Shown: piece after piece, positions 1 through 27,914 of the stretch | Numbering within the stretch: the first letter of the stretch is position 1 | Layout: each line of letters opens with the position of its first letter | Assembly (NCBI GenBank): GCA_010093815.1 | Contig: ML996569.1 | Source of the DNA: Pseudovirgaria hyperparasitica | Lineage: Eukaryota | Length of the DNA stretch: 31,327 nucleotides | Direction: 5' to 3' (one strand) | Translations under genes and position numbers: made by a program | The notes under the pieces: generated by a model | What the model was told of the DNA's origin: nothing | Database searches by the model: none | The model's input: only the letters and a program-made list of their open reading frames with translations

Positions 1-850
1 AGTCCATTATATCTTCCTTTACTAGCGTAATAATATAGGCGGGAGGTATGTTTTATAAATTATAATTAAGATAGTAGCTACTAAGATTAATATCTCCGGC
101 GGCTGTCTAGGCCGATTATACTAGTATCCTAAAACTATCTAGGCTACTATCTAGCCATATATTAAGGCGATCGAATACCGGTAGTAACCGGCCTAAAAAT
201 ATTATAGCGATTAAAATCTCTATTATTATAAGGTACCGGTCTCGTTCGTAAGACTAGAGACTATCTCTATAGGACTACCTCTTTTCATAGATAGTTAGTT
301 CCCTCTCTACTACCATTTCTCCACCTTCTTCTATTAAGCTAGATAGCTAATACGGTGGAGGAGAGGATATAAGGCCGTTATATCCCCGGTTACTATTACG
401 GTAGAATATTACCGTAACGTCTAAGCTATATAGGGCGTTACTACCACATTCGCTACCGGTATACCTAGACTACTAGGTTATTAGTAGATAAACGAACGCG
501 TCGAGATAAGCTAGATATATATATACACGTTTTTTATATTAATAGCTATCGTGTAAGTCCCTATTATTAATACTAATACGTGTCTACGTTATATCGTATC
601 TTCGTTTACCTATCCCGTTTGGTTTACTATGGTTACTAGATTATCTTCTATTAGTATTACCGCCACGGTAGCTAGATAGTCCCTTAACCGTCTTCCGTGT
701 TAGAGGTTCTATAGAGAAGATATATAAGAGATTAGTAGATATTTTCATTAGTAATGGGTCGGTAACCTACTAGGTAATAACATTAGATAGTGGGATAATA
801 ACTAGCTAGTAGACACGATAAAGGTTTAGGCGTAGACTAATATAGTATTT
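1..850 (-). pseudogene. Possible RIP-degraded gene divergent from the transposase, running off the window
   Basis: Coding-like minus-strand stretch with mostly TAA/TAG stops; no recognisable motif; boundaries approximate. Confidence 0.25.
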
Positions 851-1087
851 TTATAGACGCGTAATGCTTACGCGTTATTATTAATAATTTTAAGCGAGCG
901 TGTATAGGAATTAAGGGGCTAAGAGCTAGGTAGAAGTCGGGGGTTAGTAGGTATATATCGGGCTTTCGACGGGCTTACACCTAACTTCTTCCGGTATACG
1001 CCTAGAATATCCACCGTATACCGTATTATTACTATCTACTAATAATTATACTATAGTATTTTTCCTTTATAGTAACTATACCTTAAG

Positions 1088-1974
1088 ATGCCATAGGCCG
1101 TAGTCTCCTACTAATACTATAGTAGAAAGATTAGTAGTATACACTATATAATCCGTAGACACTATAACTTAGAACCATATAGACGAGCACGGCTTACCGC
1201 ATCGCTATTATTATTATAACTATTAGGCCCGTGGCTACTACTATCGACCGGGTTACGGCGCGGCTTTAGTACTCGTAGTTATATTAGTCGATAGAACTCT
1301 TTAGTTCGCTCTATTAGTATTTAGCCGTCGAGCGTTAATTAGGAGTCCGAGTCTATAGAATTAGGTACTTCTACTACTAATATTACCCTATATAAAGATA
1401 CTACTATTTTCCCTAATCCTATTTCGGACCTAAAATCTATAGATAGCGTTACTAGTAGCCATGGTATCGATTTAGTATATTAGTCTAATATATATAGTAG
1501 AAATACTATATCCATGGCGACGAGAGTATCTAGTACTATATATTTAATAAAAACGTTCGAAGAGGAGAGCGGTATATATATTATAGTAGACTAGAGTAGA
1601 CGTGATAATCCGTCCGACGTAAGTATATATAGTCTAGGTTTATAGTAGTAACTAATTTAGTAGGCCCGATTCGGTTAATTCAATAGTAAGTTTATAGAGC
1701 GCCTTATAATATAGACGAATCGGTTCGGTATTTCGAATATAGTATACGATAAATTAACTACTATCCTTAAATAGACTTCCGCTATACCCCCCGACCTTTT
1801 TATACTAAAATCTAATATCGTATATAAGTAGTTATTATACTACCCTAAAGGGATACCGCACGAAAGTTAATAGCGTAGCTATAACATATTCGGCACTACC
1901 ATAGTTAAATACTAGTATAGGGATCCGCTTACGTTAGTGGAATTCCTCCTTAGATACCGACCGTTCGCTAGTAA
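1088..1974 (+). pseudogene. Plavaka transposase, 5' part (N-terminal Zn-finger-like motif), interrupted by the Gypsy insertion
   Basis: ATG at 1088, then one frame with only TAA/TAG stops. It reads VKY*YRDPLTLVEFLLRYRPFAS, matching the Plavaka 'yRDpl..l..ll..p.f' segment. Removing 1975-9329 joins it in frame to K-LMFKPVR*FTSLGDRVY at 9330. Confidence 0.8.
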
Positions 1975-2198
1975 TGTAAGAATAGGGTTATTGGATAGTA
2001 GTATAGTTAGAACAATGGGGTGTATTCTATCATAGAACGAATTACTACCGAACCCTTTCGGTAGGAATCCGAGAGTATATACATAAAGGGACGCTAATCT
2101 ATCTAGTACGTGACTATTTACCGCCCTTCACGTTACCTTCTAACCCTATTAGCTAAGATACATATAGGTTAGGTCCTACCTAAGGCTAAGTCCTAATA
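1975..2198 (-). repeat. 3' LTR of Gypsy family A (224 bp)
   Basis: Plus strand TGTAAG...TCCTAATA; near-identical to 9097-9324 apart from transitions and a 4-bp indel. Confidence 0.95.
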
Positions 2199-2214
2199 AT
2201 TATCCCTTCCCTCT
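2199..2214 (-). other. Polypurine tract
   Basis: Minus strand AGAGGGAAGGGATAAT immediately precedes the 3' LTR. Confidence 0.85.
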
Positions 2215-2682
2215 AGGAAGCTACCCTTAGCGACCTAGATCGTTACCTATCTCTATATCCCTATCCTAAGTCTCGTAAGACCTTAGTCGTTCTCTACGCT
2301 TCGTCTTAGATACTTACCGATATTCGCTAATCTAAGATTTACACAAGCGTTTTCCTAATAAACTAGATTTTATCTATCTTAACTTCTTATAGAGGTAAGA
2401 TTACCTAATTAGGCCTAGCGTATCACGTAATGTAATTAGGTAAGCCCAGGTACTACCTATATTAAAATCTTTTCTTAGAAATATTCCTTTCTTTAAAAAA
2501 CTTCTTAACTCTTTATAGAGTTTTTTAGATTATTAGGTATATCACCCGATCCTTATAGACATAGATTTATATAGATTTACTATAATTTAGTACGATTTAC
2601 GCAATTTACTAATTTTCGTACCGTCCTTAGCTAGTAATAATATAATTCGTAATAATCCGTATAAATTAATAATAATCTTAAT

Positions 2683-3664
2683 ATGGTTTCCCGAAATCTC
2701 GACACTCTAAAGTAATTAGCGCGGAAATAGGCGCCTTCGAATAATCCCTATCTTATATACGTTACTAATATATCGAAAGCCATTAATCTACCCCGACCTA
2801 GGCTAGGCTCTAATAATCTAGCTATATATTATTATGGTTATCGCTTTCCGTCGTATATTACTCACGGTAGTACTAAATCTATAATATACGGCACTTACAT
2901 GACTAAGAAGCGTTATTACTTATAGGTATTTAAGTAAGTTCGAAGAACCTTACATAGATTTACTTATATCGGTATAGATTACTACTAGGCCTCTAGTAAC
3001 CTCTACCGATAAGGAGCGTGGTACTACCAATCGCAACACCTTAGAGAAGGCTTTCTACGAGCTATATACCTAAGGTAAGCGTTACGCCTAGGAGTACGAT
3101 TCTAATAAGATCCGTAAGGATTTATCGGAATCTACTATAGCTATTATTACTACGATTACTAGATAATATCATTTTTCTTAAATCGTTATAGATTCTTACT
3201 AATATATATTAATCTCTATAATAGTACTAAAATCTCTACCACTTTGGACTTCTTTCTATACACCGGCGATATTAGAATTCCTAGAAAAGGTTCTAGTAAA
3301 AAGGCTAAGGTTCCTTCCTCGCGCGTGCTAAAGAGCCGTAAATTTAGGGAAGATGGCTCTAATCTAGAAGTTTCTATACTAAAGGTATATGGTTCTATAC
3401 CGATCGTTAAATCTTTTCGCTAATTTATATAATTCTTAGCGTGCCCGCGCCGGTCCGTCCCTCTCCGTCCCGGGTCCCGCCGCTCTATAGGTTTCTATAG
3501 AGGAGTTTATAGCTATAAGGCGCGCTATATAGAATTTATAGCGTCGGAACGAAAGGCTAGAGACTTATGTTATAAAGCTCTATACTATGCTAAATAAGAA
3601 CCAGCGGAAGGAATTAGATGCAACCATCGCGGTAATTAGTACTTCTACTCCTACTCCGACTTAA
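2683..3664 (+). pseudogene. Putative antisense, intron-containing accessory gene inside the Gypsy 3' region
   Basis: ATG 2683 with TAA/TAG-only stops. YGTYMTKKRYY would restore to a Cys-rich motif. A GT..AG intron at 2926-2977 keeps phase. The last exon is coiled-coil-like (EEFIAIRRAI*NL*RRNERLETYVIKLYTML) and ends at TAA 3664. The middle exon structure is uncertain. Confidence 0.45.
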
Positions 3665-4083
3665 TCGGTTTGGATCTACATAGATCGGTGCTAATATGTC
3701 TCTTTTGTCTGGCGTTTTTGGTTTTCCGGTGGATAGATTGGTGCGAGTTTACATAGATCTACATAGATCTTCATATTTTCTTTTAGCTCTCTTAATTTTA
3801 TCTTTCTTTGATAATAACTTCTTTAATCTCTTTAGTAATCTATACCGATCTATACCGATCGGCACCGATTTTTAATGTCCATTTCTCTTAGTAAATCATT
3901 TTTCTAAGTCTCTTTTTTAGTTAAATTTTTAAAGTTCTAAGTTTGAACTTTCTAAGGAAGTTCCTTAATTCCTTAGAATGTTTTAAAGATCTATGTCTCT
4001 TTCACCTTCTTCCTTTTAGGCGGCCGTTCTCGGCGCCGAACTATACTAAAAAACATCGAATCGCCGTACTTTAGTATAATTCT

Positions 4084-7000
4084 CTACGATTCCGCGGCTT
4101 CCTTTGCTAATCGCTACTTATATACTAACATCGCTACTTTGCTAATGTTTATTATAGGTTCCCAAGTATCTTCGTTAGGATTATATCCTTTCTAATGAAT
4201 TTTATATAGCTATATACTATCTTCGGCGCGTTACTAGCTAAGTATCTACTTAACTTTATAGATATCTATACCTTCTTACGTAACTACTTTATATAGTATC
4301 TATTTAGAATAATCTAGTAATAATAAGGTATAAAATGGCTCGAGAAGCGTAATATAGAATATATTATATATCTTTAACGTAGGAGGGAGTTATAACTCGT
4401 ACGCCTAGTCATTAATTACACGAGTAATCTTATATAGACCTATTATTATATAGTTAAGCTTCTTCTTTAGCCTAATACTACGAATATTCTTGCTATTTAG
4501 TAAAACTTTATCCCTAACATTAAAGATCATAGGTTTTCTACCCTTATCATAGTACGATTTACTATAATTCGTAGCATCTTATAGTAACTTTATAACGCTT
4601 CTTTACGTTTAGAATAGTTCTATAGTAATTTCTATTACTTTAACGTTAGATCATTCTACTTTAAACTAAGTCCCTAAGAACTACATATTATGGTTCCGAC
4701 CGAAGTTTACTTCGAACGGACTTACGTAGGTTAACGTATATCGGCTATTATTATACGCGAATTCCGCGATATAGACTAACCTTACCTAGTTATCCTACTT
4801 ATAGTTATAATATACGCGTAAATACGCCTCGACTATCTGATTCTACCGCTCCGTCTATCTATCTATTTATAGGTGGAATATAGTACTAAGTTTCCGCTTG
4901 ATTCCTAGCGTATAGTAGAAATCCTTCTAAAATTTAGACGTTATCTACGGACCTCTATCCGAAACTATACTATTTAGTATACTATAGAGCCGGACTACGT
5001 CACGGAGTAGTATATCTATAAGATCCGGTGCTTGGATTATCTTCTTTATAGGGATGTAGTATAATATCTTCGTAAATCTATCTAGAACTATAAGTAAACT
5101 ATTATAAATATGCCTAGAATACTTACTTAGGGGCAGATCTATAATAAAATCCATCGATAATTCCTTCTATGCCTCCTTTAGCATAGGTAATAGCCTTAAT
5201 TTGCTATATAGTAAGTATCTATATACTTTTATATACTGGTAAACGTTATACGTTTTTATGTAGTCTTTTATATATTTATAAAGACCCGGCTAGTCGTACG
5301 TCCTTCGGATTAAATCGACCGTTCTTATAACGCTAAAGTACCCTACTAACGCGTAATCGTACTATTCCCTTAAAATATCGATTCGCAAGCCGCCTTCCGG
5401 TATATAGAGTCGGCCTTAGAAGTAGATCGCGTCTAATCGTCGTTCCTACCTTAATAACCATAGCGGATCTACAGCGCTTCCTTTTATGCTTATGACTTTC
5501 TTTACTAATATATCGGAATTCTAGGTAGATTTAATTAAGTCTTCGAGGGTTTTCTTAGTTTCTTAGACGTTTATTTAGATTACTTAATACCCGCTCTAAT
5601 TCCCGCGGAGAATCGCCGAAAGTGTTCTAGCTTCTAGTATTCTATTAGATAACTAGTCTTATAGTATCTAAAGTATAGCATAGTCTAAATTACACCGACT
5701 ATCTACGTCATTCTATAACGATTTCTTATAATCTTTACGCCGCGATAGAGGATTAGCTTTATTCTCTCTTCTAGCTTTATATAAGATTTTAAAGTTAAAT
5801 ATTAACATCTACTTAGCCTAACGTACTTATCGGCGATTAAGGACCTTAGTCGATATAAAGTAACGTAGATTTATATAATCTAATAACAATTCGATCTAAT
5901 ATACGGAGCCTTCTAAATAATATTACCATTACTTAAAACTCTTAACGATTACGAGTAGTTCCTAGTCGTGCGTGTTATAACGCGTCTCTATATCCGCTAT
6001 TTTACGGGAAAAGAAAGCGACCGAGTGCCAGTACACCTTGTCTTTCGCATCTTTATATGGTTAACTAATAATTCTAGTAATTATAAATCCTAACGCGTTA
6101 GTTTTAACCCGAATATACTTCTCGGGATTAAAATACCTAAGAATCGGCGTAGTTATAAAGTAATTCTTTAATGATTGGAACGTATCTCGCGCTTCCGGCG
6201 TTAATAATATCTTAACCGACTTAGCTTTACGCTATACTCGCCTACCTATAGGGATTTTACCGCTATTCTCTATAAGTTTATTAAGCGGCGCCGCAATTCG
6301 TAAGAAGCCTATAATGAATTTATAATAATAGTTTACGAAACCTATAAATGTTCTAATTTAACGTATAGTAGTAGGTTCTAGCCATTCCATGATGGTCTTT
6401 ACACGCTCCGGCTCTATTTTTAGGCCGCCATATGTCATAATAAAGCCGAGAAACCTAACTTCTTATTAGTAAAACTTGCATTTAGATAATTTTACGTAGA
6501 GTTTATACTACCTTAGACGATTTAGTACCGATTTCACGTATTCTTTATGATCCTATATACTATTAGAGTAAATTAGTATATTATCGAGATAAACTACGTA
6601 AATTACGTCAAGTAATTCTACGAGTATAGTATTAATATATCCTTAAAACGCTCCTAGCGCATTTATTAGCCCGAATAGCATAATAGTATACTTAAAATAA
6701 CCATATCTAGTCCGAAATGCGGTTTTCCACTTATCTCCGTAACGAATTTAAAGCCGGTAATATACATCTCGTAAATCTAGCTTCGTAAAGTACTTTACCT
6801 TCGTTAATTAGTCTAAAGATTTACTAACTAGCGGTAATAGGTAACGATTCTTCTTAGTCACCGTATTTAGTATCTAATAGTTAACGCATAGACGTAAACT
6901 TCCGTCTTTCTTCTTCACGAAGAGAATAGGTATACTAGCCGATGATATACTACGACGTATCTAGCCTCTTTTAAGGTATTCTTTAATATATTTATAAAGA

Positions 7001-7761
7001 ACTTTAAGTTCTAGTCTCGAAAGTAGGTAAAGTAGGCTATAAGGGACGTCTACTCCCTCTTCGAGCTCGATCTTTAGCTTATATAGCCCGTGATTAGGGA
7101 GAAGTAACGCATCTCCTACCGAAAACATATCTACATACTACGAATATACGTTAGGTAGCGTATCTTCGCCCCGATTATTACTATTATTCTCGTCTTTATC
7201 GACGATCGATAAGGACGTAAGATAGATTAGCGATAATCGGGTCCGCACGGCGAGGTTCCATGCCTCCTTACTAATAGTTATAACTTACTAGTATAATTTA
7301 CTACGGTATTATCGGAACGTTAATGTCTTCTTCTAAAAATCAAGGATAGGGTTTAGACGTCTAAGCTAAGGCATCCCTAGAATTATATTCTATTAGGTAA
7401 TATTAGCCACGATAAATTTATTAGACATCTACTATTTTATTATCTTCGAGTCATGAACTTCGTAATTCGTTATAGCTTTACCTAAAGTTCTAACTTTATG
7501 TCTATTAACTACGATAGTTCGGCTAACTTTACCGAGATCGTACGATAATCTATACTCCTTTACGAGAATCGACGAAATATAGTTATCTTCTATACTAGTA
7601 TCTACGAGGGCCTATATAGTTTTATTACCATTTACTATAGATAACGATACTTTTAGTAATATTAGGTCTTTACTCGCCGGAAGGCGCTACGGCTCCTCCT
7701 AAGTATATATAATTTAGCTAAGAACGCGGTTAGGTCTCGTGTACTAGCCTATTCTTTTTTT
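4084..7761 (-). pseudogene. pol: Gypsy pol polyprotein (protease, RT, RNase H, integrase, chromodomain)
   Basis: One frame: ALVDTSIEDNYIS (~7602, DTG protease), [36 protein letters not shown] at 6580-6591 (from YLDD), WHSVAFFSRK (RNase H), MDFIIDLP...SIVSDRGP (integrase; track ORF 4945-5154), YKIH*KGYNPNEDTWEP (chromodomain ~4150-4210). Confidence 0.95.
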
Positions 7762-9062
7762 AGATTCTTATAGTTAGGCGAAATATATCCTATTTCTCTA
7801 TACTTATAGTAACGAAGTGCGCTATAATCCTACTATTTTACGATAGGCGTTATATTTAAGCCTATACCTTATCCTTTTCCGTGTTAAGAAGCACCGCCTC
7901 GATTATTTCGGTATCCTCTTAACGCGTTTCTACCCCGATTTACACTCTTCTAGCACTAATCGTAGTAAGGTTACTCTTAATCGAATATATTCGATCGACC
8001 TCGTTTCTAACCCGTATAGGGTTCGTCGGTTTTACCTAGAGAGCCGCGTTTCTTAAGGATGCGGTAGCATTTATTAGCTTTCTTCTCTAATTCGTATAGA
8101 TAGTTAAAACTTAATAATACTATTCCTAGTCTTTCGCGGATTAACGGAAGTAGTACTTCGCGAAACTAGAATATACGAATATTTTCCTATAGCGTAGGAA
8201 TATTATCCTATAGGTTTTAGAGGTATTATAGTAGTTAAGTAGGTATCTAGTTCGGTCGTTATACCACGCTTCTTAACTTAGATAGTGCCTTTCTTTTACG
8301 TTCTCTATCCGTTCCGAGGGTGTTTAGTATAAATATAGCTAAATATTCCTAGGTTATCGTAGATAGTGGCTATACTTTCTTCTGTCTATCCTATTAATCG
8401 CGGGATTATAAGCCTAGGTATCGTTCTCCGAACGAAATGCGTTATACTTTAGTAGAAAAGAGTAGAGAGTTATCGAGGAAGTACTTTTCGTAGTCTCTCT
8501 TCTAGTCTTTCTACTCCTTTTAGTTCTTCCCTATAAATATAGTTAGGTCTTTAGGTTTTAGTACACCTAGAGAAGGAGTAGGGTAAATCGGCAACGAAGC
8601 GGTCGGGTATACGGTGGATTATCGCAACTCTAATGGTAGGTAAACTAATTCCGCCTAAATTGGTGTAGGAAGTCGTCCACCTACTATCGTTCGGCGTAGT
8701 TCTTTAAGAGACTCCTTAAGTTCTTATCTCTTTACGAGGAGTTTCGTGCGTTCTACCTATTCTTTAAGAGTTTAAATCTCTCGAGCCTAATTCGCGACGT
8801 ATTCCTAAAGTTCGGCGATGGTTTATTATAATACCTCGCGTAGCTCCGCCACGACTCGTTATCCGGCTTTATATTATTAGAAGTTACTCGGCGTATCTAC
8901 TATTTCTTCGTCTAAAAGCTCCGTGATTCAGTCTAATATTTCCACTTCTCGGTTAGAAACGGCCGGGATTAATACCGATTATAGAGGATCTCTATTATTT
9001 AATATAGTGTTACTTATCCGTATAGTGGATCGTGTCGATCTTCTCGGTTCTAGTTAGACTAT
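7749..9062 (-). pseudogene. gag: Gypsy gag with C-terminal CCHC zinc knuckle
   Basis: 438-codon frame from a likely RIP-altered start (ATA). It ends in YYKYREIGYISPNY, which restores to C-x2-C-x4-H-x4-C, then an A7 run (7755-7761) and TAG. pol lies in the -1 frame. Confidence 0.85.
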
Positions 9063-9096
9063 CTTAACTATAGTACTATATAGGGAGTAATTCGAA

Positions 9097-9324
9097 TGTA
9101 AGAATAGGGTTATTAAATAGTAGTATAGTTAGATAGAATAATAGGGTGTATTCTATCACAGAATAAATTACTACCGAACCCTTTCGGTAGGAATCCGAGA
9201 GTATATATATAAAGAGACGCCGATCTATCTAGCACGTAACTATTTACCGCCCTTTACGTCACCTCCTAACCCTGTTAGCTAAGGTACGTGTAGGTCGGGT
9301 CCTGCCTAAGGCTAAGTCCTAACA
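9097..9324 (-). repeat. 5' LTR of Gypsy family A (228 bp)
   Basis: Minus strand TGTTAGGA...TTCTTACA with canonical TG..CA ends; TSD AGTAA adjacent. Confidence 0.95.
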
Positions 9325-9329
9325 AGTAA

Positions 9330-11769: not shown

Positions 11770-12216
11770 GTCTATCGCTATCTACCGCCGCCTACCGTAG
11801 TATACCGGTATATGCCGGCATATAGCGGAAGTTATAGTTTATATATAGTAGCACTTGATAGTCGTATCCTACACTAGGATATCTCTAAGGAATAATTATA
11901 GTTTATTACGATCGGTTCTATAAAAGGCTTATATTTAATAACTATCTATAATTTCAGCTAAGGAGTATCTAGGGATACACCTCCTTATTACCTAATAATT
12001 ACTAGCTAGTATAAAAACTCCACGCCTCTAAAAGGGGCATATAGAACTTAAAGGATCCTTATTCACGGGTAGAACTAGACGCGGATAGCATTAACCTAAT
12101 ATAGATAGATTATATACATTAATACCCTAAAATCCGAACTATATCTCTAGGCCCACTAGACCTAGCTCGCATCTAATCCTAATATTTTCGTTATTCGCGT
12201 TTATACCTTATTAGAT

Positions 12217-12344
12217 GCCGGGCATATAACGAGTCTATGGTTAAGTAAGTATTAGGTACGTGACGAGTCTATTAATAAATAAGTACCGGGTATATAACAA
12301 GTCTATATAAATAAGTATAAATAAGTGTATACCGGGTATGTAAC
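12217..12344. repeat. Degenerate ~34-bp tandem repeat, 3-4 copies
   Basis: Units resemble (G/A)CCGGGYATATAACRAGTCTAT...TAARTAAGT. Confidence 0.6.
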
Positions 12345-12349
12345 GCTCT

Positions 12350-14290: not shown

Positions 14291-14451
14291 ATATTAGTAT
14301 ATATCGATATATTATAACTACTAAGCGGTGTATACCGATGTATGCCGGTATATCCGGTATATACCGGTATAATACCGTCGCTCTTCCGTGGATATAATAC
14401 TATTTATATATCTTAGGTTTTCGGTTATTAGTTATATATAGTATTATATAT

Positions 14452-15334: not shown

Positions 15335-15616
15335 TCTTAGCTTCCTTTAGTCGTCCCTATATTATAAAAGAAAACTTCTATAAACCTTTCCTCTACTTAT
15401 CTTGGTTTTTAAACCTAAATCTTACCTTCTATACTTTATTCCGTGTTAATCACGACTATATACGAACGCTACGTTAAACTCGACTCTATTAACCCTTAAG
15501 GTCTATTCTATATAATAGTTAACGAGGTCATATTTATAGTTCATAATATGGATTAAGAACTCGTTATATTCGGCGATGTTTAGGACTAGTCTACGCTTAA
15601 CGTAATTAAGCCTTAT

Positions 15617-15940
15617 GTTTAAGCCGAGTCTCACGTTTAAGTCGAGCCTTACGTTTAAGTTAAGCCTTATACTTAAGTCGAGCCTTACGTTTAAGCCGAG
15701 CCTTACGTTTAAGTCGAGTCTCACGCTTAAGCTAATCCTTATATTTAAGCCGAGCCTTACGCTTAAGCCGATCCTTACGTTTAAGCCGAGCCTTACGTTT
15801 AAGCCGATCCTTATATTTAAGTCGAGCCTTACGTTTAAGCCAATCCTTATATTTAAGCCGATCCTTACGTTTAAGCCGAGCCTTACGTTTAAGCCGAGCC
15901 TTACGTTTAAGCCGAGCCTTACGCTTAAGTCGAAGCTTAC
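15617..15940 (+). repeat. 18-bp coding tandem repeat, 18 copies, ancestral (V-Q-A-E-P-H)n
   Basis: Unit GTTTAAGCCGAGCCTTAC, in frame with the helicase as GTT TAA GCC GAG CCT TAC. CAC survives in some units. Confidence 0.9.
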
Positions 15941-18900: not shown

Positions 18901-19930
18901 CGAGTTAGAACGCTTAGTTCCTAGGATAATAAACGTTATATTACTAATTACTTACTTAGACGAGCTAACAACCTCGCCCCACATAATAAATAATATTAAT
19001 ATACCACTTACAGAGACCGTTCGACAAATATTTAGAATCCGCGGCCATTAACACGTTATATATACTAACGTCGACGGGGATCACGCGTATATAGTAAATA
19101 ACTTAATATATAATATAGACTTATTACGTTTTACTTAGTAGATTATTACCAAGCTCTTCTATTATAGCGTTGCACTCGATCGCGTACTCTATATTTCTAT
19201 ATACGCTACCCAACGTAATCTATTTAAAGGAATAGTTAGGAACTCGCTTCTAACTACACTTACCGCAGCGGATAAAGCTCGATTTAATACCCTACCTAAG
19301 CCGGTATAGAAGCTTATCTAATAGCGTTCATAGGACGGTTCTTAGGGTTATAATAACGATATAGTCCTTATTAACCTAGTCTAAACCAATCGCTTCGGCT
19401 TCCTCTCGGAAGTAAACCGTAATATTATTACTATTACGCGCGCTAAATAGATAATGGTTATTATCGCTAACTTTATATCTCTTAAGAGGTAGAAAGTCCT
19501 AGACGGCGTACTCGGCGAGATATAGAATAAGTACTCTAAGATTCATGCGATATACACGTACATGACCCCTAACCTAGATAGCCTCCCTCTACTCTCTAAT
19601 ATATCTAATCTCTAATATAGTCGCTCTATACTTAGTATTAGAGAGAGGGGAGAACGAAGTAATTAATAAACTACCAATAGTACTAAGCCCCGTAAGCCGC
19701 TAGTCTACCATAAATATAACGTCGAAGGATATAAGTCTATTAAGTATCTAAGAGGGTCGACGCTTATATATAATAACTATTAGAATATCGGCTATAAAGC
19801 TAATGTTTACTCTAAACCCAAGACGCTTACGGGTACGTTTTACTATAATTATAGGACTACTAGTTATACTTAGCGTTATTATCCTAGCCGTACTAAATTA
19901 CCAGCATGCATAAATAGTAATAATCTAGTT

Positions 19931-20014
19931 AATGCTACTAGAGCTAATACTACTAGAGCTAATACTACTAGAACTAATACTACTAGAACTAATACTACTA
20001 GAGCTAATACTACT
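19931..20014 (+). repeat. 15-bp coding tandem repeat, 5.6 copies, in the helicase tail
   Basis: AATRCTACTAGARCT units in the helicase frame. Confidence 0.85.
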
Positions 20015-21029
20015 AATAAAGTAACTACTAGCGGCTAGGATGATAGAGACTACGAGGATACCGGCCGAGATAGCAGTATTACGACATATAAAGACATAGA
20101 AGTTAATTAGTAATAGTATATAATTAGACTTACGTGTTAGGGCTACTTAGTTACGGCTTCTTAGTAAGTATACCTTTATATCCATTTTAGATATAGTTAC
20201 GACATCCTACTAGGTAGATAGTTTAGCTCTATTAAAGACCTATTAAGGGTATTTCTATTACGTCTACTCTAGTATAGACGCGCTATTAGATAATACGGCG
20301 CCACTAGGCACGTTAACTAGTACCCACCGATTAAGAAATAAACACGATTCTATATCTACCGTAAGCCCTAGCCTAATAACGTAGGCTTCCTTTAGTTATC
20401 CCCTTTATACTTTTAAAACTACTTCTAGCCTTTATATCGGGAGATATTACCACCTAAAGAGAAAATATAAAAAAACATACGCCCTAATCAAAGCCTCCAC
20501 CTTTAGACTTTAACTATAATATATACGGGATATAGTAAACCTAAATATCGCATACTTCAAAAGCATAGAAGGATACGATACTTAAATATAACAAAATATA
20601 GGCTTACAATACTCGGAGAGTACCTAGGGATAAGTATATAAATATAAAATGGGATAAGACTAACGCGGCACCTCGTATATGCGTAGCCATATACCGTCCT
20701 AGACGTAGTCGCCTATAATATAATATTACGAGATAAGAATCATGGCTATCTAATTCTATTAAGGGTATTAGACGATATAAAGTAAATAACTACACGCCCG
20801 ACCACGCCACGCTAAGTTACGTACGTGTTATAAACGCGTGTTCGAGGAATAATAAGGATATAAACGAGGTTCACCTAGTAGGTGCCTCGTTATTCCGGCT
20901 TCTACCTCTATCGTCTAACCTATACCTTCGTCTTCCTCGCGCCCACGATATACCACGCGTATACTATATAATTAGTCCGTAAATTATAAACACTATATTA
21001 ACTATATACGTTAACTATACACGATTAAC

Positions 21030-21482
21030 ATATCGAATCCGATTCTATAATAAAGTAACCGTCCGAATATAGTAATTACTATAGCACTACTTCGTATCTT
21101 AAGCCTAGATATATAAGTAAAGCGTGAAGCTATAGAGGCGCGTATAAGGTAGCTATATATAGAAGTATATACGGCTACTCCACTCGCAGACCATAGGTAT
21201 TAAACTAAGAACAAGCTCGGCGTAAAAAGAGCACGTAAGATTATTAATAAGGTAGTAGGCGAATTCCTAGTAGTATAGAAAAGAGTAGTAGAGTGCATAG
21301 AGATGAAGGCGCTATACCATATCTACGACCAGGTACGCACTATAGTATAATAATAATAATAATATTATATAACTAGGTAGAGTAGTACTCTATAGGCCTA
21401 TGCCTCCTCTAGTCTAAGCCACTATATAAGAAGAAACCCCATAGGGAAAAACTTCCTTATATCTATAACTACATCTCGTTAA
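21030..21482 (+). pseudogene. Small unknown helical protein gene with poly-Gln remnant
   Basis: Frame reads ALLRILSLDI*VKREAIEARIR*LYIEVY...KALYHIYDQVRTIV, then (TAA)5, likely from (CAA)5. Confidence 0.45.
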
Positions 21483-21689
21483 ACCTCTATTTTATCTTAA
21501 GTATATAGCTATAGGGTACGCCTATTAGCCTATAGCCTATATTACCGTTATTTTACCCTTAGGCAGCACGTGTAGGTGCGGAGGTTATTAGTTAAGGGCT
21601 ACCCTTAACTAATAATCGGGGTTCTCCCGGGGTTCTTCCGGTATGTATCGGGTTGCTACCGGCGTATACCGGGTCTCTTCCGGTATATA

Positions 21690-23250
21690 TTTCCGGGTCC
21701 ACTGGTACTGGAGGAGTGGTAGATGTGTAAGCATCCATCGGGATACGCACTATAGTATAGAAAACCGTATATTATAGAAAAACTATCTCCGAGTATAAGA
21801 AGAGGCGCATAATTATAGCCCTACATTCTACGACCTTATAATCCCCGCCTATCACGACCTTATAACCTCCGCCTATCGCGACCTTATAACCCCCGCCTAT
21901 CACGACCTTATAGCTCTTATATACCACGACCTTATAGCCTATACTCGTAGCGGTCCCATAGCCTACTAACGTATATACTATAAGAAAAATTAAATTCACG
22001 ATTAGGTTTAACGACAACACATTCCTTAAAATACTAGTACCTATATCTAACTAGTAGAAAGACCATAGCGACGCTTCGTGTGTTAATTTAGTAGTATTTA
22101 TATAGTAAATTAGGGTCTAATACGCAACGAAGACTAGGAGGGTACTTAACTAGAGCCGTACTACTATACATTCTATCGTGCTAGTAATCGAGTATACGAT
22201 AAGTAAAACGGAACTAGAGGTAGATATTAGATAGCTCCTATAGTTAGTAATCGAATATATCCTAGAATATAGTAATAGTATAATACTCCTCGGCCTTAGA
22301 TAGGATATAGATAGTATACCCGAAGTAAAACGAAATATAAACCAGCGACTAATATATAATAGTATAGACGGCTATATATAGGTTACGCTCGAATAAATCC
22401 GCCCCTCCGTCCCTAATACTACACTCGCTACGATTAGTATAATAATAGTAATAGAAAGCTACCGCCTATGACGGTAGAGATACCCACGGAGATAGTATTA
22501 TAGGTAGTAGATAGCATTACCTAAACGACTTGACCCTTCCTCTAGCGATACTATATATACTACTATTAGCACCCGGGAAGTCGCGAGACCGACCTATAAG
22601 CTCTAAAGATAGTAACTTTAAAAGCCTTAAAAGTACCTTAGATATAGAGAATATAGATATCGCTTTCGAAGACTAATAGAATAATAAAAAGGGTGCTAGA
22701 GGTAGTAAGAGTAGCGTGCGTACTTAGCTAAGGCGATGCAATCCGACGTAAGACGGCTTCTACCTACTATATATTAGTATATACCTAATTCTACTAGCTA
22801 TATAACTATAGCGTATATGTTCGGTTAAGACGTTACGATACTAGTATAAGCCGGCGTCTACCTAGTTCACGTCGGGATACGCCCGGTTCTACTAGCTATA
22901 TTATTACTACGACTATAATTATATAAGATCTACTCTAATAATTAAACATTTACTTATATACTTTACTTTCTCCGTACTTATTAAAATTATGTTATAATTA
23001 CTAAACGCGGCGACTTAACTCCTACCGCCTAAATCTAGTTTTCATATCTTATCGCCATTAACGCCGTCTTACTACCTATAGCCTAAGTCATATATAGAAA
23101 TAGATAGGTATAACGAGAGTCATGACTATCCTAGTTTAACTACTAGCCATAGAATGGCTAACCGTAACACGCATATACGACGTATAGAGGCCTTAAGTAT
23201 TAGCGCCCTCCTACCTTATATCTAGTACCTCTAAGGCCTATACCTAATAC
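21690..23250 (+). pseudogene. Unknown coding region, either a separate gene or the N-terminal part of the SNF2 gene
   Basis: Coding-like frames with TAA/TAG stops, including the TTL*PPPI repeat; continuity with the downstream gene not resolved. Confidence 0.35.
21830..21949 (+). repeat. 24-bp tandem repeat, 5 copies (T/A-T-L-Q-P-P-P-I)
   Basis: ACGACCTTATAAYCYCCGCCTATC-like units start at 21830, 21854, 21878, 21902 and 21926; the last two are degenerate. Confidence 0.85.
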
Positions 23251-23495
23251 CCGAAATAAGTCATGATATATATAGGGCTACCATTATTAAGATAGTAAGT
23301 AAAGAAGTGGTAATAGAGCTTAAAACTAGTAGTATAGACACTACTATACTCTATAGAATAGTTAAGGAAACCGTTACTAGAGAATTTAATTAGTATATCG
23401 CGGCTATAGATAGTAAGTTAGTACCGACGGTTACGACCATAGATATAACAGAGGCTAAACTAGACATAGATACTATAGGCATAGGTACGTAGATA

Positions 23496-24395
23496 TAGTT
23501 ACCGCTGGAATATAAGGAGAAAGATAATATAGAAGATACTAAAATAGAAGACGACGTAGCTAGTATACTTAGACACATATATATATACACGGTCCTAGAT
23601 ACTAATATTAGAGTAGTATCGAATATAGGCGCGGTTATAACCACCGATATAGATAATCCACCTATGAATATCGTCGTGCCTAGCGAAGCTCATCCACGCG
23701 TAAATACACCAGCCATAGAGATATAGTTATAGTTACCGCCGGAATATACAGAGAAAGAGAACGTAGAAGATACTAAAATAGAAGACGACGTAGCTAGTAT
23801 ACTTAGATATATATATATATATATAGTTCTAGATGCTAACATTAGAGTAGTATCGAAGATAGGTGCGGCTATAACCACCGACATAGATAATCCATCTATA
23901 AATATCGTCGTGTCTAGCGAAGCTTATCCACGCGTAAANNNNNNNNNNNNNNNNNNNNNNNNNNNNNNNNNNNNNNNNNNNNNNNNNNNNNNNNNNNNNN
24001 NNNNNNNNNNNNNNNNNNNNNNNNNNNNNNNNNNNNNNNNNNNNNNNNNNNNNNNNNNNNNNNNNNNNNNNNNNNNNNNNNNNAGAGTAGTATCGAAGAT
24101 AGGTGCGGCTATAACCACCGACATAGATAATCCATCTATAAATATCGTCGTGTCTAGCGAAGCTTATCCACGCGTAAACACACTAGCCATAGAGACATAG
24201 TTATAGTTACCGTTAGAACATGCGGAGAAAGAGAACGTAGAAGATACTAAAATAGAAGACGACGCAGCTAGTATACTTAGACACATATATATATATATAT
24301 ATAGTCCTAGATACTAATATTAGAGTAGTGTCAAAGATAGGTGCGCCTATAATTACTAATATAGATAATTCCCCCACGAATGCCGTCGTGTCTCT
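23496..24395 (+). repeat. 234-bp (78-codon) tandem repeat, 3-4 copies, spanning an assembly gap
   Basis: Unit starts at 23496, 23730, (23970, in gap) and 24204; encodes LPxEYxEKxNxEDTKIEDDVASILR... Confidence 0.9.
23939..24083. other. Assembly gap (145 N)
   Basis: Run of N. Confidence 1.
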
Positions 24396-26736
24396 AGATA
24401 CTAGCGAGACTTATCTACGGCTACTAGAAATAAAGAGGACACTCTCGGATAATATAGTAAATCTAGTCGATTCTCCGAAACGCCTAAAACTAGAATATAT
24501 TATACTACTAGATGTCGACTAGTAGACATGTAAAAACCAGGAACTGTTCGGGTTAGTAGATAATTTATATAGTAGATATACATTGGATAGTACATTAGCG
24601 AACGGCCTTGACTTTAAAATCCTTTCTATAGACGACGACTCTAATAGAGATAAAGCAAAGCCAGATATAGAGGACTTAATTCCGGTAGATAACGATATTA
24701 GTACGAAACTATAGGAAGCGTAAGTCACACTAAGAAGTAAGTAGGAATATATACTACCATACTAATGTATCTATAGAATATTCGCCGTTAATAACTCCGA
24801 TAAAGTAGTCTAAGCTATCTCTTATTATACGGAAGAGATACGGTTACTTACTATAAGTATATTTAGGCTTACGCTAGATAACCTAATAAAGAAGTTCGGC
24901 CATATACCCACTCTATATCTAGCCTTTAGTATAAGTAGGTTATATAGGCTATAGGCCGGCTAGTTACTCGCGGTAGTTACTATATTTAAGTAGTAGGTAG
25001 GTCTATGGAAGTACCAGATCTTAGTAGATAGCCTAGGGCTAGGGAAAATAATCGTGCTTATAACGTTCATCCGCCTCGTGTTTTATTAGGACTTTCTACG
25101 CGATAATATAGAACTTAATCTAGAAAATCATCTATAACCGACTTAAGACTTAGGTATGGATAGGAAGTGCCCGATATAATCTCTGTATCCGATTAAATAT
25201 CCGTGTAGCTAGACCGATGATTTCGTCTATATACCCCGCCTTCAAGGACCATTTATACTATACTACCTAAGGTCCCTTCTAATAGCGTATTAGCCGTGGC
25301 GCTTTAAATAGATATATAATAATACGGATAGTATATTCACCGATTAAATTAATAAACGGAACCCGATAAAGATAATAGTATGGCTAGCGTACTCGAAAAC
25401 CCTTACTAACGCCCCTAGTATCCGATAATTCTCGCATGTAGACCGATAATACTTAGCTAAGAGATACCTACACCCCGAATAGAAACACAGCGTCGATATT
25501 AGTAATACTACTAAATTCGAGACTGACGAGGAGTATATTATTAGGGCATGGTTAATTCCCGTTAATAGAACCGCTACTACTAAATTTCCGTCGCGATACG
25601 CGAAGAACTATATAATCTATAGCACCGTCTAGAGTATAGAACCCTAATATCTTAAATCTTTTAAGGGACGCGTGGTTATAAGAGTAAAGAGGGCGAAATA
25701 ATTTAGTACTAAAAACACTTAAACTCGCGAAGTAGCATTCCTTAGTATATTAATAGTAGACGAGTTCTATTCCGCAAAGAACCCCGATATAAAACAGTAT
25801 AAATATACGATATATAATACCCTTATATTTAGTATATAGGTTAGTGTAACGCCCCTCTCGAATAGTCTAGTAGATATTCTAGTAGCTATTAAGGTAGATA
25901 CTCCGGATAAGTTACCCGACTACGTCGATAATAATACTACTAAAAGGGTATTCGAGAGCCTATAGAATAAAACTATAAGAAAGATTATTATAATATAGTC
26001 GAATAAACTCCTTAGTTTAATAAAAGGCAAGCCGGCGGACACGATGGCCGCGATAGTCCGTAGGGCATTAGAAACCATAGAAGGTAAGCGCACACTACGT
26101 ATGGTAGCCAATTAGTATTTACTATTTATTCTATAACGGGGACTACTAACTAAATAGTTTAATGGAGAGGTATATCTATCTACGACATTAAAGCTAGTAG
26201 TAGAGTTTATATCTATCCCGGCTATAGAACTAGAGAAGATAATTATACGGTTATACGAGAATAGAGGTAGATAGTTTAATAATCTATAGCCTAACGGAAC
26301 GCCGCGGGACTTATAGGTATAATCTACCGCCTAGAGTAAATTGAAAGGGGGTACCGGGTCCGGGCTTAACGTATACTACTATTAGGCTAGGCTAGCTACT
26401 ACGTGTATACTACTTATATACCTTACTAATAAAAAGATAGAAGACGAGTAAATTAATATTACGCTTACGCGTCGGAGGAATAGTAATAATAGTATACTAA
26501 GTAAGATAATCGCTAATCCTATACACAAAGCACTCCTATAGCTAGATAAGGCTATATAAAAGGAGATAGTATCGCTAGCTAATAAACACGCTTCGAAGGT
26601 AAACTAGATCCGTAACTTTATTAATAATAATATTTATAATAAAAGTACTAGACGCGCGCGACGAACATCCGCCAACCGCCTAGAGAAAATCATACTTACA
26701 TGTGCCGTACCGGTAAGCTTAATATTCCTATACTTA

Positions 26737-26785
26737 GTAAGTATTTACACTACCTACTAGTAACGTAATTCACTAATATATATAG
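26737..26785 (+). other. 49-bp spliceosomal intron in the SNF2 gene
   Basis: GTAAGT donor, CTAAT branch-like site at 26773, TAG acceptor; splicing joins the helicase-C motifs in frame. Confidence 0.75.
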
Positions 26786-27387
26786 GTACTACGTCCATAT
26801 ATATAAGTAAAAATATTAGTATATTTACTAGCCGGCCTAAGTACGTCCGAATTAAATAAGGCATATAGATTATTTAGATTAACCAAGTCAGATTCTCTAT
26901 ATATTCTACTAGTATTAGCTTCGTAGGTCTGCGAAGGATAAGACCTAATAGTCGCCGGTTTTATAGTATTAGTAGACTAATACTTACGTAAGGAGACGTG
27001 GCCGTAGGTAAGTATAAGATATTATCGCTATAGATAATATCGGCCTATAGTATATACGTATACTTTAATTTTAGACTATTTAGAGGTTAAGGCTAGACTC
27101 GCCGCGTTAGATAAGATAATCGAAAGCACGAGGATATAAGCCTTGGACCTAGGAAAAGGAGATATAGCTATGGTAGAGATAGCTATACCTAATATACTAG
27201 TAATAGGTGTACGCTTTAATTCTATAGAGATATAGTAGTATAGAAGTAAGTAAGGTAGTTAGTCAATTAGCTTCTAAGAGACTAGATAGCATGGTAGTAT
27301 AAATATAAACCGCTGTTTACTCGTGATTATATATCTATATATATCTATACGTGAAGAGAAATAAGATATTTATTCTATACTATTATA

Positions 27388-27698
27388 TAGTAGGACGTTA
27401 CTATATATGCCGGCATATAACGGAATATTCCGATATACGCCGGTATATTATAGGATATTCCTAGATACTTAAAGTATAGTCGTAGTATAAAGTAGTATTA
27501 CTATTATATGCCGGCATATAGTAGGACGTTACTATATATGCCGGTATATAACGGGATCATGTTCTAATATACTATACGCCGCCGGTATATTATAGAATAT
27601 TCCTAGATACTTAAAGTATAGTCGTAATATAAAGTAGTATCGCTATACTATACTAGTATTTAGTAGGACGTTACTATATATACCGGTATATAACGGGA
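27388..27698. repeat. Subterminal ~131-142-bp tandem repeat, 2.3 copies
   Basis: TAGTAGGACGTTACTATATAT(G/A)CCGG(C/T)ATATAACGG at 27388, 27519 and 27661. Confidence 0.85.
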
Positions 27699-27739
27699 TT
27701 AAACGTTTTCTTAACGTTCGATAGAACGATTCTAAAAGA

Positions 27740-27914
27740 ACCGGGACGGCTCTAGGAGAACTAGAATAACTCCGGGAGGACTAGGACGACTCTAGGAGGA
27801 TTAGAATAACTCTAGAAGTACCGGGACGACTCTGGGAGGATTGGGATAACTCTAGAAGTACCGGGACCCATTTAGGATAACTTTAGAAGTACCGGGAGAC
27901 CTAGAAGCATTGGG
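27740..27914. repeat. Terminal 20-bp-period repeat array ending in GGG, the putative right end of the DNA element
   Basis: Six regular 20-bp units like ACCGGGACGACTCTGGGAGG / ATTGGGATAACTCTAGAAGT, then shorter units. Gypsy protease sequence begins immediately after. Confidence 0.8.

What the first reader, a model, noticed from the sequence alone, without database searches (positions are those of the whole stretch)
1..27914. Candidate giant Plavaka/CMC-like DNA transposon carrying both an SF1 helicase and a SNF2 ATPase
Seen: a Plavaka transposase, an Upf1-like helicase, a SNF2 ATPase and 4-6 unknown ORFs lie in one block of >20 kb (excluding the Gypsy). All are similarly RIP-mutated, the block ends in subterminal repeats, and it abuts a cut retrotransposon pol gene. 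Known: RIP targets repeated DNA; Plavaka transposases are related to the CACTA/Mirage (CMC) group; other fungal DDE elements (AcademH, KolobokH) carry a RecQ-type helicase. Inference: this is one multi-copy, multi-gene mobile element with its own nucleic-acid/chromatin motor genes. I do not know of a described Plavaka element with this SF1+SNF2 gene set, but I cannot check the literature.
Basis: partly seen in the sequence, partly recalled or inferred. Interest (0 to 1): 0.9.

Follow-up and report, generated by a model that had tools for sequence, protein, structure and literature searches.

The report
RIP-killed giant Plavaka-type transposon candidate
A mutation-riddled, many-copy stretch of fungal DNA of about 20 kb carries a Plavaka-type transposase gene followed by a helicase gene and a probable chromatin-motor gene, and is probably one very large dead transposon of a kind so far described with other cargo genes.

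Summary
Reading stop codons as X, Pfam finds a Plavaka transposase (E 1.6e-24) and an Upf1-like SF1 helicase (AAA_12, E 2.7e-10; best solved relative ZNFX1). The SNF2 ATPase is only probable: a sub-threshold Pfam hit (E 0.046) plus four SNF2 motifs in order in one frame. Two wide homology searches found nothing.

RIP signatures cover the whole window, flanks included, so they delimit nothing. The "cut pol gene" beside the block is not confirmed, nor are the "4-6 unknown ORFs".

New here: the Gypsy (1975-9324) has a perfect 5-bp target duplication and sits inside the transposase gene. Contigs of two runs of one sample show that 9330-28005 is multi-copy, with transition-type variants and a nearly flat summed depth that steps up about 5-fold near 27.93 kb. 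That rules out RIP leakage into single-copy host genes.

No termini, left end or second full copy could be examined. A repeat cluster like the right-end array also lies just after the transposase gene, so two adjacent units remain possible. Giant multi-gene Plavaka elements are already described in red algae, so this is a new variant of a known kind. One composite element: about 0.5.

The parts
1..1974 (+). Left part of the block. It was contiguous with base 9330 before the Gypsy inserted, and probably holds the N-terminal part of the transposase gene. No left terminus was found.
   Evidence: The 5-bp duplication AGTAA at 1970-1974 and 9325-9329 shows a simple insertion. The reading frame of window:2-1975 runs into the Plavaka frame across the junction (read). 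There were 0 Pfam hits in six frames. Relatives have 235-363 residues before the aligned part.
1975..9324 (-). Nested Ty3/Gypsy chromovirus inserted into the Plavaka transposase gene. It is not part of the element.
   Evidence: LTRs at 1975-2198 and 9097-9324, 88% alike. RVT_1 1e-25, RT_RNaseH_2 2.4e-17, Integrase_H2C2, rve, SH3_Tf2-1 and Chromo.
9316..11650 (+). Plavaka-type DDE transposase gene remnant, full of RIP stop codons. The 3' end is estimated.
   Evidence: PF18759, E 1.6e-24. 11 relatives found. tblastn matches cover 9316-10812, and the relatives have about 280 more residues after that.
11775..12340 (.). First cluster of the family motif (palindrome TATATGCCGGCATATA and GCCGG(G)CATATAACG variants), directly after the transposase gene.
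   Evidence: A 45-nt match to 27404-27448 is reported both as direct repeat D5 and as inverted repeat I3.
14325..14371 (.). Second small cluster of the same motif, in the unassigned spacer 12.4-15.5 kb.
   Evidence: There are no Pfam hits in 11500-16103 (plus frames) or 12400-16103 (minus frames).
15539..15988 (.). Tandem array of an 18-nt unit, upstream of the helicase gene.
   Evidence: 18.5 copies, 81% matches.
16100..20034 (+). Upf1/ZNFX1-like SF1B helicase gene remnant. A Walker-A-like site starts at 17912, AAA_12 covers 18887-19471, and a 15-nt (pentapeptide) array lies in frame at 19915-20034. The gene limits are estimated.
   Evidence: AAA_12, E 2.7e-10. ZNFX1 at 8e-7 and other Upf1-like helicases. 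Arrays. Motif position.
21336..22002 (.). Short piece of much higher copy number that looks partly un-RIPped (about 21.5-21.75 kb) and carries CCGGTAT-type motifs and a 24-nt array. Likely a separate small repeat, perhaps a short derivative of the same family.
   Evidence: Summed depth is 240,579 here against about 20,000 around it. Sequence, motifs, array 21823-21936.
22900..26700 (+). Probable SNF2-type ATPase gene remnant. A 234-nt (78-aa) tandem array lies in frame at 23376-24393 and is broken by an assembly gap (N at 23939-24083). The gene limits are estimated.
   Evidence: SNF2-rel_dom, E 0.046, nt about 25018-25914. Motifs I, II, III and the LRRxK block at 25036, 25759, 25849 and 26131 in one frame. 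Arrays, gap. Minus frames gave 0 hits.
27371..27867 (.). Right-end repeat arrays: copies of the palindromic motif in 142-nt units (27371-27699), then a 20/40-nt array (27722-27867).
27900..27960 (.). Approximate right boundary of the roughly 20,000-depth repeat.
   Evidence: Summed depth is 15,551-27,732 up to 28005 and 96,405-108,228 from 28006. The slightly raised last bin fits a step near 27.93 kb (the position is inferred).
27915..30075 (.). Flanking repeat of unknown kind and higher copy number. It is outside the element.
   Evidence: Depth. There were 0 Pfam hits in six frames.
30076..31327 (+). Second, inverted copy of the same Gypsy family (LTR 30076-30306). It runs off the window.
   Evidence: Inverted repeat 8247-9322 / 30079-31154, 92%. 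Purine/pyrimidine-collapsed matches.

Best explanation
The stretch 1-1974 plus 9330 to about 27930 is a copy of one very large cut-and-paste DNA transposon of the Plavaka lineage, related to CACTA/EnSpm. It is at least 20 kb long without the nested Gypsy, and RIP has inactivated it.

Shown here:
- It carries a Plavaka DDE transposase gene. Downstream on the same strand lie a ZNFX1/Upf1-like SF1B helicase gene and a probable SNF2-type ATPase gene.
- A family-specific palindromic motif is clustered after the transposase gene and at two sites in the stretches between the genes (one of these lies in the separate high-copy piece at 21.3-22.0 kb), and arrayed at the right end.
- The whole stretch is present in roughly 40-90 copy-equivalents in the sequenced sample, and the variants differ by RIP-type transitions.

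Inferred:
- The transposase bound the subterminal motif arrays and moved the whole unit.
- The two motor genes were accessory (cargo) genes. By analogy with the TET/JBP, methylase/SET and 2OG-oxygenase genes of other Plavaka elements, they may have helped the element get access to chromatin or evade silencing.
- After amplification, RIP destroyed all reading frames. A Gypsy then inserted into the transposase gene, and a small high-copy repeat landed at about 21.5 kb.
For: Gene content: Plavaka (E 1.6e-24), AAA_12 (E 2.7e-10) and a ZNFX1-like match. The SNF2 motifs are in order and SNF2-rel_dom was the only family listed for that stretch. All three genes are on the + strand.

The Gypsy is a clean nested insertion with a perfect 5-bp duplication, so the two parts are one sequence.

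Multi-copy, with transition-only variants: 1310 of 1328 variant places in X1 and 1383 of 1410 in X2.

Summed depth is 15,551-27,732 in 26 of the 28 bins between 9330 and 28005. The two exceptions are a tandem array and the 21.3-22.0 kb piece. Depth jumps to 96,405-108,228 beyond 28005. A perfectly matching contig has depth 304 in X1 and 175 in X2.

The motif TATRYCGGYRTATA has 12 matches against 0.16 expected, all between 11.8 and 27.7 kb. None lies in the Gypsy, in 1-1974 or in 27.9-31.3 kb.

Precedent: giant Plavaka families of 17.4-19.1 kb with three accessory genes and tandem repeat arrays in a red alga (bioRxiv 10.1101/2025.02.11.637652, passages), and TET/JBP-carrying Plavaka in mushrooms (PMC12730594, passages).
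Against: No terminal inverted repeat, no 2-3-bp target duplication and no left end were found.

The contigs are 140-210 nt long, so none links two genes. The read-laying tool warns that summed depth is no copy number.

A motif cluster like that of the right end lies at 11.78-12.34 kb, just after the estimated end of the transposase gene, where an ordinary Plavaka element would stop.

Depth differs somewhat between segments. The X1 means are about 18,700 for 9.3-14.7 kb, 23,900 for 14.7-20.7 kb and 17,300 for 24-27.3 kb.

SNF2 is below Pfam's threshold and has no Helicase_C and no homologue in two wide searches. The helicase query also found no homologue in the word-based search.

The flanks of 80 metagenomic Plavaka loci (566,471 nt) showed no helicase or SNF2 likeness. 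These loci are distant, mushroom-like relatives.
Confidence: 0.5

Rival explanations
1. These are two units of one family lying side by side. An ordinary autonomous Plavaka element ends in the motif cluster at about 12.35 kb. A separate non-autonomous unit of about 15.5 kb (12.4-27.9 kb) carries the helicase and the SNF2-like gene, has the same repeat motifs near both ends, and is moved in trans.
For: Motif clusters at 11775-12340 and 27371-27699 match each other both directly and as an inverted pair. The transposase gene is estimated to end at about 11.65 kb. There is a small drop in summed depth after 12.66 kb, from 19,269 to 17,122 in X1 and from 9,396 to 8,609 in X2.
Against: There is no depth step at 12.35 kb comparable with the 5-fold step at about 27.93 kb. 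Further motif clusters lie inside the supposed second unit, at 14.35 and 21.65 kb. No termini were seen at 12.35-12.4 kb.
Confidence: 0.25
2. The block is a repeated gene cluster amplified by segmental or subtelomeric duplication rather than by transposition, like the X3X3R8 repeat of Stagonospora nodorum. The Plavaka gene is a passenger or an old insertion.
For: There is a precedent. X3X3R8 is a RIP-affected multi-copy repeat with Rad5/SNF2-like helicases, a Rad6-like gene and unknown ORFs, read by its authors as an endogenous gene cluster (PMC3017866, passages). No transposon ends were found here.
Against: Roughly 40-90 copy-equivalents is high for segmental duplication. The transposase has the same depth and strand as the motors. 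The motif arrays in spacers and at the end look like transposase binding sites, though this is an inference. No UBC/Rad6 domain was found in the frames scanned.
Confidence: 0.15
3. The SNF2-like stretch is not an SNF2 gene. The motifs are chance or belong to another P-loop protein, so the block holds only a transposase and one helicase.
For: The Pfam hit is below threshold (13.3 bits against 24.9) and there is no Helicase_C. There were 0 PDB hits at E up to 1 and 0 hits at E up to 0.001 in 1.84 billion proteins.
Against: Four SNF2 motifs lie in one frame in canonical order within 1.1 kb. Their chance rates per whole six-frame window are 0.05, 0.015, 0.4 and 0.43. SNF2-rel_dom was the only family listed at E up to 10. 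RIP lowers scores strongly: in the Gypsy of the same window the integrase core reaches only 22.7 bits against a cut-off of 32.6. The motif patterns themselves are recalled, not taken from a call.
Confidence: 0.1
4. The helicase and SNF2 genes are single-copy host genes mutated by RIP leaking from neighbouring repeats.
For: The whole window is equally RIP-affected, so RIP alone cannot tell.
Against: The helicase and SNF2 parts are covered by thousands of diverged contigs, at a summed depth 50-90 times that of a perfectly matching contig and equal to that of the transposase part.
Confidence: 0.02

Closest known systems
Giant Plavaka DNA transposons of red algae (Bostrychia moritziana, Chondrus crispus; bioRxiv 10.1101/2025.02.11.637652, passages read)
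   Same: A Plavaka DDE transposase, a size of 17-19 kb or more, several accessory genes with DNA- or chromatin-directed functions, tandem repeat arrays inside the element, many mostly degenerate copies.
   Different: The accessory genes there are PAG1-3 (N6-adenine methylase plus SET; ParB-like plus 2OG oxygenase; unknown). Here they are an SF1B helicase and a probable SNF2 ATPase, and no PAG-type domain was found in the frames scanned. The host here is a RIP-performing fungus, and the ends are not defined.
TET/JBP-carrying Plavaka (PlavakaB) of Agaricomycetes (PMC12730594, passages read; Iyer et al. 2014, cited there and not read)
   Same: The same transposase family (PF18759; the nearest hits are Agaricomycete proteins). 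The principle is also the same: a Plavaka element carries a gene that may counter silencing.
   Different: Those elements have defined termini (CATCA..TGATG or TGT..ACA) and 2-3-bp duplications, and one accessory gene of another kind. They are reported from Agaricomycotina. Identity to the window's transposase is only 22-28%.
X3X3R8 repeat family of Stagonospora (Parastagonospora) nodorum (PMC3017866, passages read)
   Same: A RIP-affected multi-copy unit of several genes that includes Rad5/SNF2-like helicases and unknown ORFs in an ascomycete.
   Different: No transposase was reported. It has a Rad6-like ubiquitin-conjugating gene, was interpreted as an endogenous gene cluster, and had nine copies with gene models.
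CACTA/En-Spm elements of plants (recalled, no call)
   Same: A related transposase clade. Subterminal repeat arrays serve as binding sites, the elements are large, and they readily carry extra genes.
   Different: They have CACTA termini, 3-bp duplications and a second element-encoded protein (TnpA) that binds the repeats. None of these could be tested here.
Large KDZ transposons of Cryptococcus (PMC11343200, passages read), and helicase-carrying Academ-H/Kolobok-H (named in PMC10799480, passage; otherwise recalled)
   Same: Fungal or eukaryotic DDE elements larger than usual, with extra ORFs or a helicase.
   Different: The transposase superfamilies differ.

Membership tests
Plavaka transposons (CMCT clade) | Transposase with the Plavaka domain (PF18759) | tested here: met
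   E 1.6e-24, 87.2 bits against a cut-off of 26.3; 11 of 11 hits carry PF18759; matches at 9316-10812.
Plavaka transposons (CMCT clade) | Termini TGT..ACA (PlavakaA) or CATCA..TGATG (PlavakaB) with 2-3-bp target duplications (PMC12730594) | tested here: inconclusive
   No ends were located. Purine/pyrimidine-collapsed repeat scan and transition-tolerant alignment (not clearly above shuffles). The left end may lie outside the window, and RIP can alter these short motifs.
Plavaka transposons (CMCT clade) | [quoted passage not shown] | not tested
   The frame is heavily mutated and no residue-level alignment was inspected.
Plavaka transposons (CMCT clade) | Repeated (multi-copy) in the genome | tested here: met
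   20,716 and 10,164 contigs laid. Summed depth is about 50-90 times (X1) or 40-70 times (X2) that of a perfectly matching contig.
Giant Plavaka with an accessory gene cassette (red-algal type) | Transposase and accessory genes lie between one pair of ends in many copies | not testable with these tools
   No genome assembly is held and the contigs are only 140-210 nt long.
Giant Plavaka with an accessory gene cassette (red-algal type) | PAG1-3 homologues (N6-methylase/SET, ParB-like/2OG oxygenase) | tested here: not met
   No such Pfam family appeared in the frames scanned. RIP lowers sensitivity, and not all frames were scanned.
Upf1-like SF1B helicases | AAA_12 C-terminal helicase domain | tested here: met
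   E 2.7e-10, 40.6 bits against 27. ZNFX1 at 8e-7, then aquarius, Nam7, Sen1, SMUBP-2 and DNA2.
Upf1-like SF1B helicases | AAA_11 N-terminal domain with Walker A | tested here: inconclusive
   No AAA_11 hit at E up to 0.01. A Walker-A-like GxxGxxKS stretch is visible from 17912 (a direct reading).
SNF2 ATPases | SNF2-rel_dom above Pfam's threshold | tested here: inconclusive
   E 0.046, 13.3 bits against 24.9, the only family listed. Motifs I, II, III and the LRRxK block are in order.
SNF2 ATPases | Helicase_C lobe | tested here: not met
   three plus frames of 26101-27401 gave 0 families at E up to 10.
Ty3/Gypsy chromoviruses (the nested insert) | LTRs, 5-bp target duplication, RT-RNaseH-integrase-chromodomain order | tested here: met
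Starship giant elements | Tyrosine-recombinase 'captain' gene (DUF3435) at one end | tested here: not met
   No such Pfam hit in any frame scanned. The minus frames of 9330-12399 and 16104-19999, and two plus frames of several stretches, were not scanned. The defining feature is recalled.

The most novel reading that the evidence does not exclude
An ascomycete once hosted a burst (tens of copies) of a Plavaka transposon of 20 kb or more that carried its own ZNFX1/Upf1-like helicase and its own SNF2 chromatin remodeller. That would be a DDE transposon equipped with two nucleic-acid motors, possibly to open chromatin at its ends or to blunt RNA- or chromatin-based silencing, until RIP killed the whole family. 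I found no Plavaka or other DNA transposon with this cargo in the papers searched.
Probability: 0.4. Interest if true: 0.65.

Novelty: new variant of a known kind. Interest (0 to 1): 0.45.

Why it matters
If the three genes really travel together, the list of chromatin- or DNA-directed accessory genes that Plavaka/CACTA-like transposons pick up would gain two ATP-driven motors. The genes known so far are TET/JBP, methylase/SET and 2OG oxygenase. It would also show giant Plavaka elements in RIP-performing fungi; the fungal families reconstructed in PMC12730594 are all from Agaricomycotina. It might further give a transposon origin to puzzling multi-gene helicase repeats such as X3X3R8.

This copy is dead, so function can only be studied in intact relatives, if any exist. 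On the practical side, about a megabase of such a genome may be this one family. That figure is a rough inference.

Tried and rejected
- No genome is held for the window.
I then used shorter references.
I resent it with X at the stops.
- Stop-density mapping of frames was not discriminating.
- The word-based homologue search with the helicase gave 0 hits.
- phmmer of the SNF2-like stretch against the PDB gave 0 hits. The same stretch against 1.84 billion representatives gave 0 hits.
- The ESM Atlas tool does not take readings with X at stops. I did not pursue it.
- Pfam found nothing in 1-1974 (six frames) or in 27915-30076 (six frames).
- Pfam also found nothing in 11500-16103 (plus frames), in 19899-23938 (plus frames) or in the minus frames of 24084-27901.
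- In the minus frames of 12400-16103 and 20000-22902 the only hit was a spurious sub-threshold DNAJC11 match on a tandem array.
- The purine/pyrimidine-collapsed repeat scan found only the Gypsy LTRs and the tandem arrays.
- The transition-tolerant alignment for terminal inverted repeats gave scores at or only slightly above the highest shuffle, with long gappy alignments that show no TIR, so it shows nothing.
- Metagenome scan with an alignment of 11 Plavaka proteins: 80 loci. The helicase and SNF2 queries gave 0 tblastn hits and the block gave 0 tblastx hits. One GLGKT motif in L046 led to no SNF2 domain among 11 ORFs.
- Earlier findings of the scan held nothing relevant.
- The runs were found with 12400-22399. 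1-9329 was never laid on the reads, so the copy number of the left part is unknown.

Full report
WHAT IS IN THE WINDOW

The whole 31.3 kb is AT-rich (GC 0.32-0.40) and carries the dinucleotide signature of repeat-induced point mutation everywhere. TpA/ApT is 1.48-1.71 and (CpA+TpG)/(ApC+GpT) is 0.14-0.33 in all 16 two-kb bins, including 28-31 kb outside the claimed block. Only two ORFs of 100 aa or more survive, both in a tandem array. No genome is held for the window. All gene calls therefore rest on frames read through with X at the stop codons.

GENES

A Plavaka transposase is certain. PF18759 scores E 1.6e-24 and 87.2 bits against a cut-off of 26.3. A database search gave 11 hits, which all carry PF18759, at 22-28% identity; nine bear names of Agaricomycete species and two are unnamed. 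Their tblastn matches cover 9316-10812 in one frame. The Pfam match starts at profile position 65, exactly where a Gypsy LTR ends.

That Gypsy (1975-9324, minus strand) has LTRs at 1975-2198 and 9097-9324 and a perfect 5-bp target duplication, AGTAA. It has the full RT-RNaseH-integrase-chromodomain set. It is therefore a simple insertion into the transposase gene, and 1-1974 was once contiguous with 9330 onward. The frame of window:2-1975 runs into the Plavaka frame across the junction (read). Pfam sees nothing in 1-1974. The relatives have 235-363 residues before and about 280 after the aligned part. The gene should therefore begin somewhere in 1-1974 and end near 11.65 kb (an inference).

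An SF1 helicase is also certain. AAA_12 scores E 2.7e-10 at about 18887-19471. The best solved relative is ZNFX1 (8e-7), followed weakly by aquarius, Nam7/Upf1, Sen1, SMUBP-2 and DNA2.

The SNF2 ATPase is only probable. SNF2-rel_dom was the sole family listed for 24940-26100 even at E up to 10, but at E 0.046 and 13.3 bits it is under the cut-off of 24.9, and no Helicase_C follows. phmmer against the PDB and against 1.84 billion representatives found nothing. On the other hand, the motifs GLGKI, DEFYSAKN, TPLSNSL and LxRGLLTK lie in one frame in SNF2 order at 25036-26131. Their chance rates per whole window are 0.05, 0.015, 0.4 and 0.43 (the motif patterns are recalled). RIP lowers scores strongly here: the integrase core of the Gypsy reaches only 22.7 bits against 32.6.

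All three genes are on the + strand. Nothing else was recognised in the frames scanned. Those were the plus frames of 11500-16103 and 19899-23938 and the minus frames of 12400-16103, 20000-22902 and 24084-27901. The "4-6 unknown ORFs" cannot be verified.

REPEATS AND ENDS

The right end holds arrays: a 142-nt unit at 27438-27699 and a 20/40-nt unit at 27722-27867. Their core is a palindrome. The pattern TATRYCGGYRTATA has 12 matches against 0.16 expected. All 12 lie between 11.8 and 27.7 kb, and none lies in the Gypsy, in 1-1974 or beyond 27.9 kb. A looser pattern has 27 matches against 4.5 expected, clustered at 11775-11828, 12219-12300, 14325-14367, 21638-21672 and 27410-27696.

The first cluster lies just after the estimated end of the transposase gene. 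It matches the right-end array both directly and as an inverted pair. This can be read two ways. The motif may mark the spacers of one large element, or an ordinary Plavaka element may stop at about 12.35 kb with a second unit following.

No terminal inverted repeat or left end was found. The purine/pyrimidine-collapsed scan and the transition-tolerant alignment gave nothing clearly above shuffles. The published Plavaka termini (TGT..ACA or CATCA..TGATG, with 2-3-bp duplications; PMC12730594, passages) are too short to recognise after RIP.

The flank 27915-30076 gave no Pfam hit in six frames. The "cut retrotransposon pol gene" is therefore not confirmed. A second, inverted copy of the same Gypsy starts only at 30076.

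COPY NUMBER

Two runs of one sample hold the stretch. Their contigs were laid on 9330-29329 at 80% likeness or more and gave 20,716 (X1) and 10,164 (X2) pieces. In X1 these split into 6802 at 99% or more, 5884 at 95-99%, 6281 at 90-95% and 1749 below 90%. Variant places are transitions in 1310 of 1328 cases (X1) and 1383 of 1410 (X2).

Summed depth in X1 is 15,551-27,732 in 26 of the 28 bins from 9330 to 28005. The exceptions are 37,932 over the 234-nt array and 240,579 at 21336-22002. Depth is 96,405-108,228 beyond 28005. A contig that matches the window perfectly has depth 304 (X1) or 175 (X2). This suggests roughly 40-90 copy-equivalents of the whole stretch and a boundary near 27.93 kb.

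The read-laying tool warns that summed depth is not a copy number. The contigs are only 140-210 nt long, so none links two genes. I take this as solid evidence that the transposase, helicase and SNF2-like parts are all repeated to a similar degree. That excludes single-copy host genes hit by RIP leakage. It is only suggestive evidence that they are one unit.

COMPARISON OUTSIDE THE WINDOW

A scan of metagenome contigs with an alignment of the 11 Plavaka proteins gave 80 loci (566,471 nt). The window's helicase and SNF2-like translations found nothing there, and tblastx of the block found nothing. A lone GLGKT motif in L046 led to no SNF2 domain. These loci are distant, mushroom-like relatives and the queries are RIP-damaged, so the negative result says little.

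LITERATURE

Among papers that mention Plavaka (20 held, 16 listed; 10 also mention helicase, 8 listed), I read passages of five. None links Plavaka with an SF1 or SNF2 gene.

Giant Plavaka elements are, however, described. Three families of 17.4-19.1 kb make up about a third of the Bostrychia moritziana genome. They carry three accessory genes (methylase plus SET; ParB-like plus 2OG oxygenase; unknown) beside tandem arrays of inverted repeats (bioRxiv 10.1101/2025.02.11.637652, passages). Mushroom Plavaka elements can carry TET/JBP (PMC12730594, passages).

In Stagonospora nodorum, the RIP-affected repeat X3X3R8 holds Rad5/SNF2-like helicases, a Rad6-like gene and unknown ORFs. Its authors read it as an endogenous cluster (PMC3017866, passages). 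Two further searches for transposons with SNF2 accessory genes found nothing closer (passages of PMC10799480 and PMC11343200 read). Supplements were not seen.

VERDICT

The most likely reading (about 0.5) is one dead, giant Plavaka-type transposon of at least 20 kb, whose cargo was a ZNFX1/Upf1-like helicase and a probable SNF2 ATPase. The transposase would have moved it through the palindromic subterminal repeats. The movement and the role of the motors are inferred, not shown.

The rivals are:
- two adjacent units of one family (0.25);
- a block amplified without transposition (0.15);
- a false SNF2 call, which is a sub-claim compatible with any of the readings above and not a fifth alternative (0.1);
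- RIP leakage into host genes (0.02), which contradicts.

It is a new variant of a known kind. Interest is moderate (0.45), because the kind is already in print, the copy is dead and the unity of the block is unproven.

Noticed in passing
window 21336-22002 (core about 21500-21750): A short piece with about 12 times the summed depth of its surroundings (240,579 against about 20,000). It looks GC-richer and not RIP-mutated, and it carries CCGGTAT-type motifs like the block's end repeats plus a 24-nt tandem array. It may be a very abundant small element, short enough to escape RIP, and perhaps a miniature derivative of the same family.
   Followed up: partly
window 23376-24393, N run 23939-24083: An assembly gap of 145 N lies inside a 234-nt tandem array. 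The array is in frame with the SNF2-like gene (78-residue repeats), so the true number of repeat units is unknown.
   Followed up: partly
window 15539-15988 and 19915-20034: An 18-nt array lies just upstream of the helicase gene. A 15-nt array at its 3' end is open in the helicase frame (pentapeptide repeats). Together with the 234-nt array, each motor gene is flanked by its own tandem array.
   Followed up: no
window 27915-30075: A repeat of unknown kind with about 5 times the summed depth of the block and no Pfam hit in six frames. It lies between the block and the next Gypsy LTR.
   Followed up: partly
window 1975-9324 and 30076-31327: Two copies of one chromovirus family lie in opposite orientation. 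The two LTRs of the complete copy are only 88% alike, while its internal part is 92% like the second copy. RIP therefore acted after the insertion into the already repeated block.
   Followed up: partly
window 375-388 (minus strand): A single reverse-oriented, two-mismatch copy of the end-repeat motif lies in the left part, within the chance rate for this loose pattern (4.5 expected per window). It could hint at a left subterminal region but is not significant on its own.
   Followed up: no
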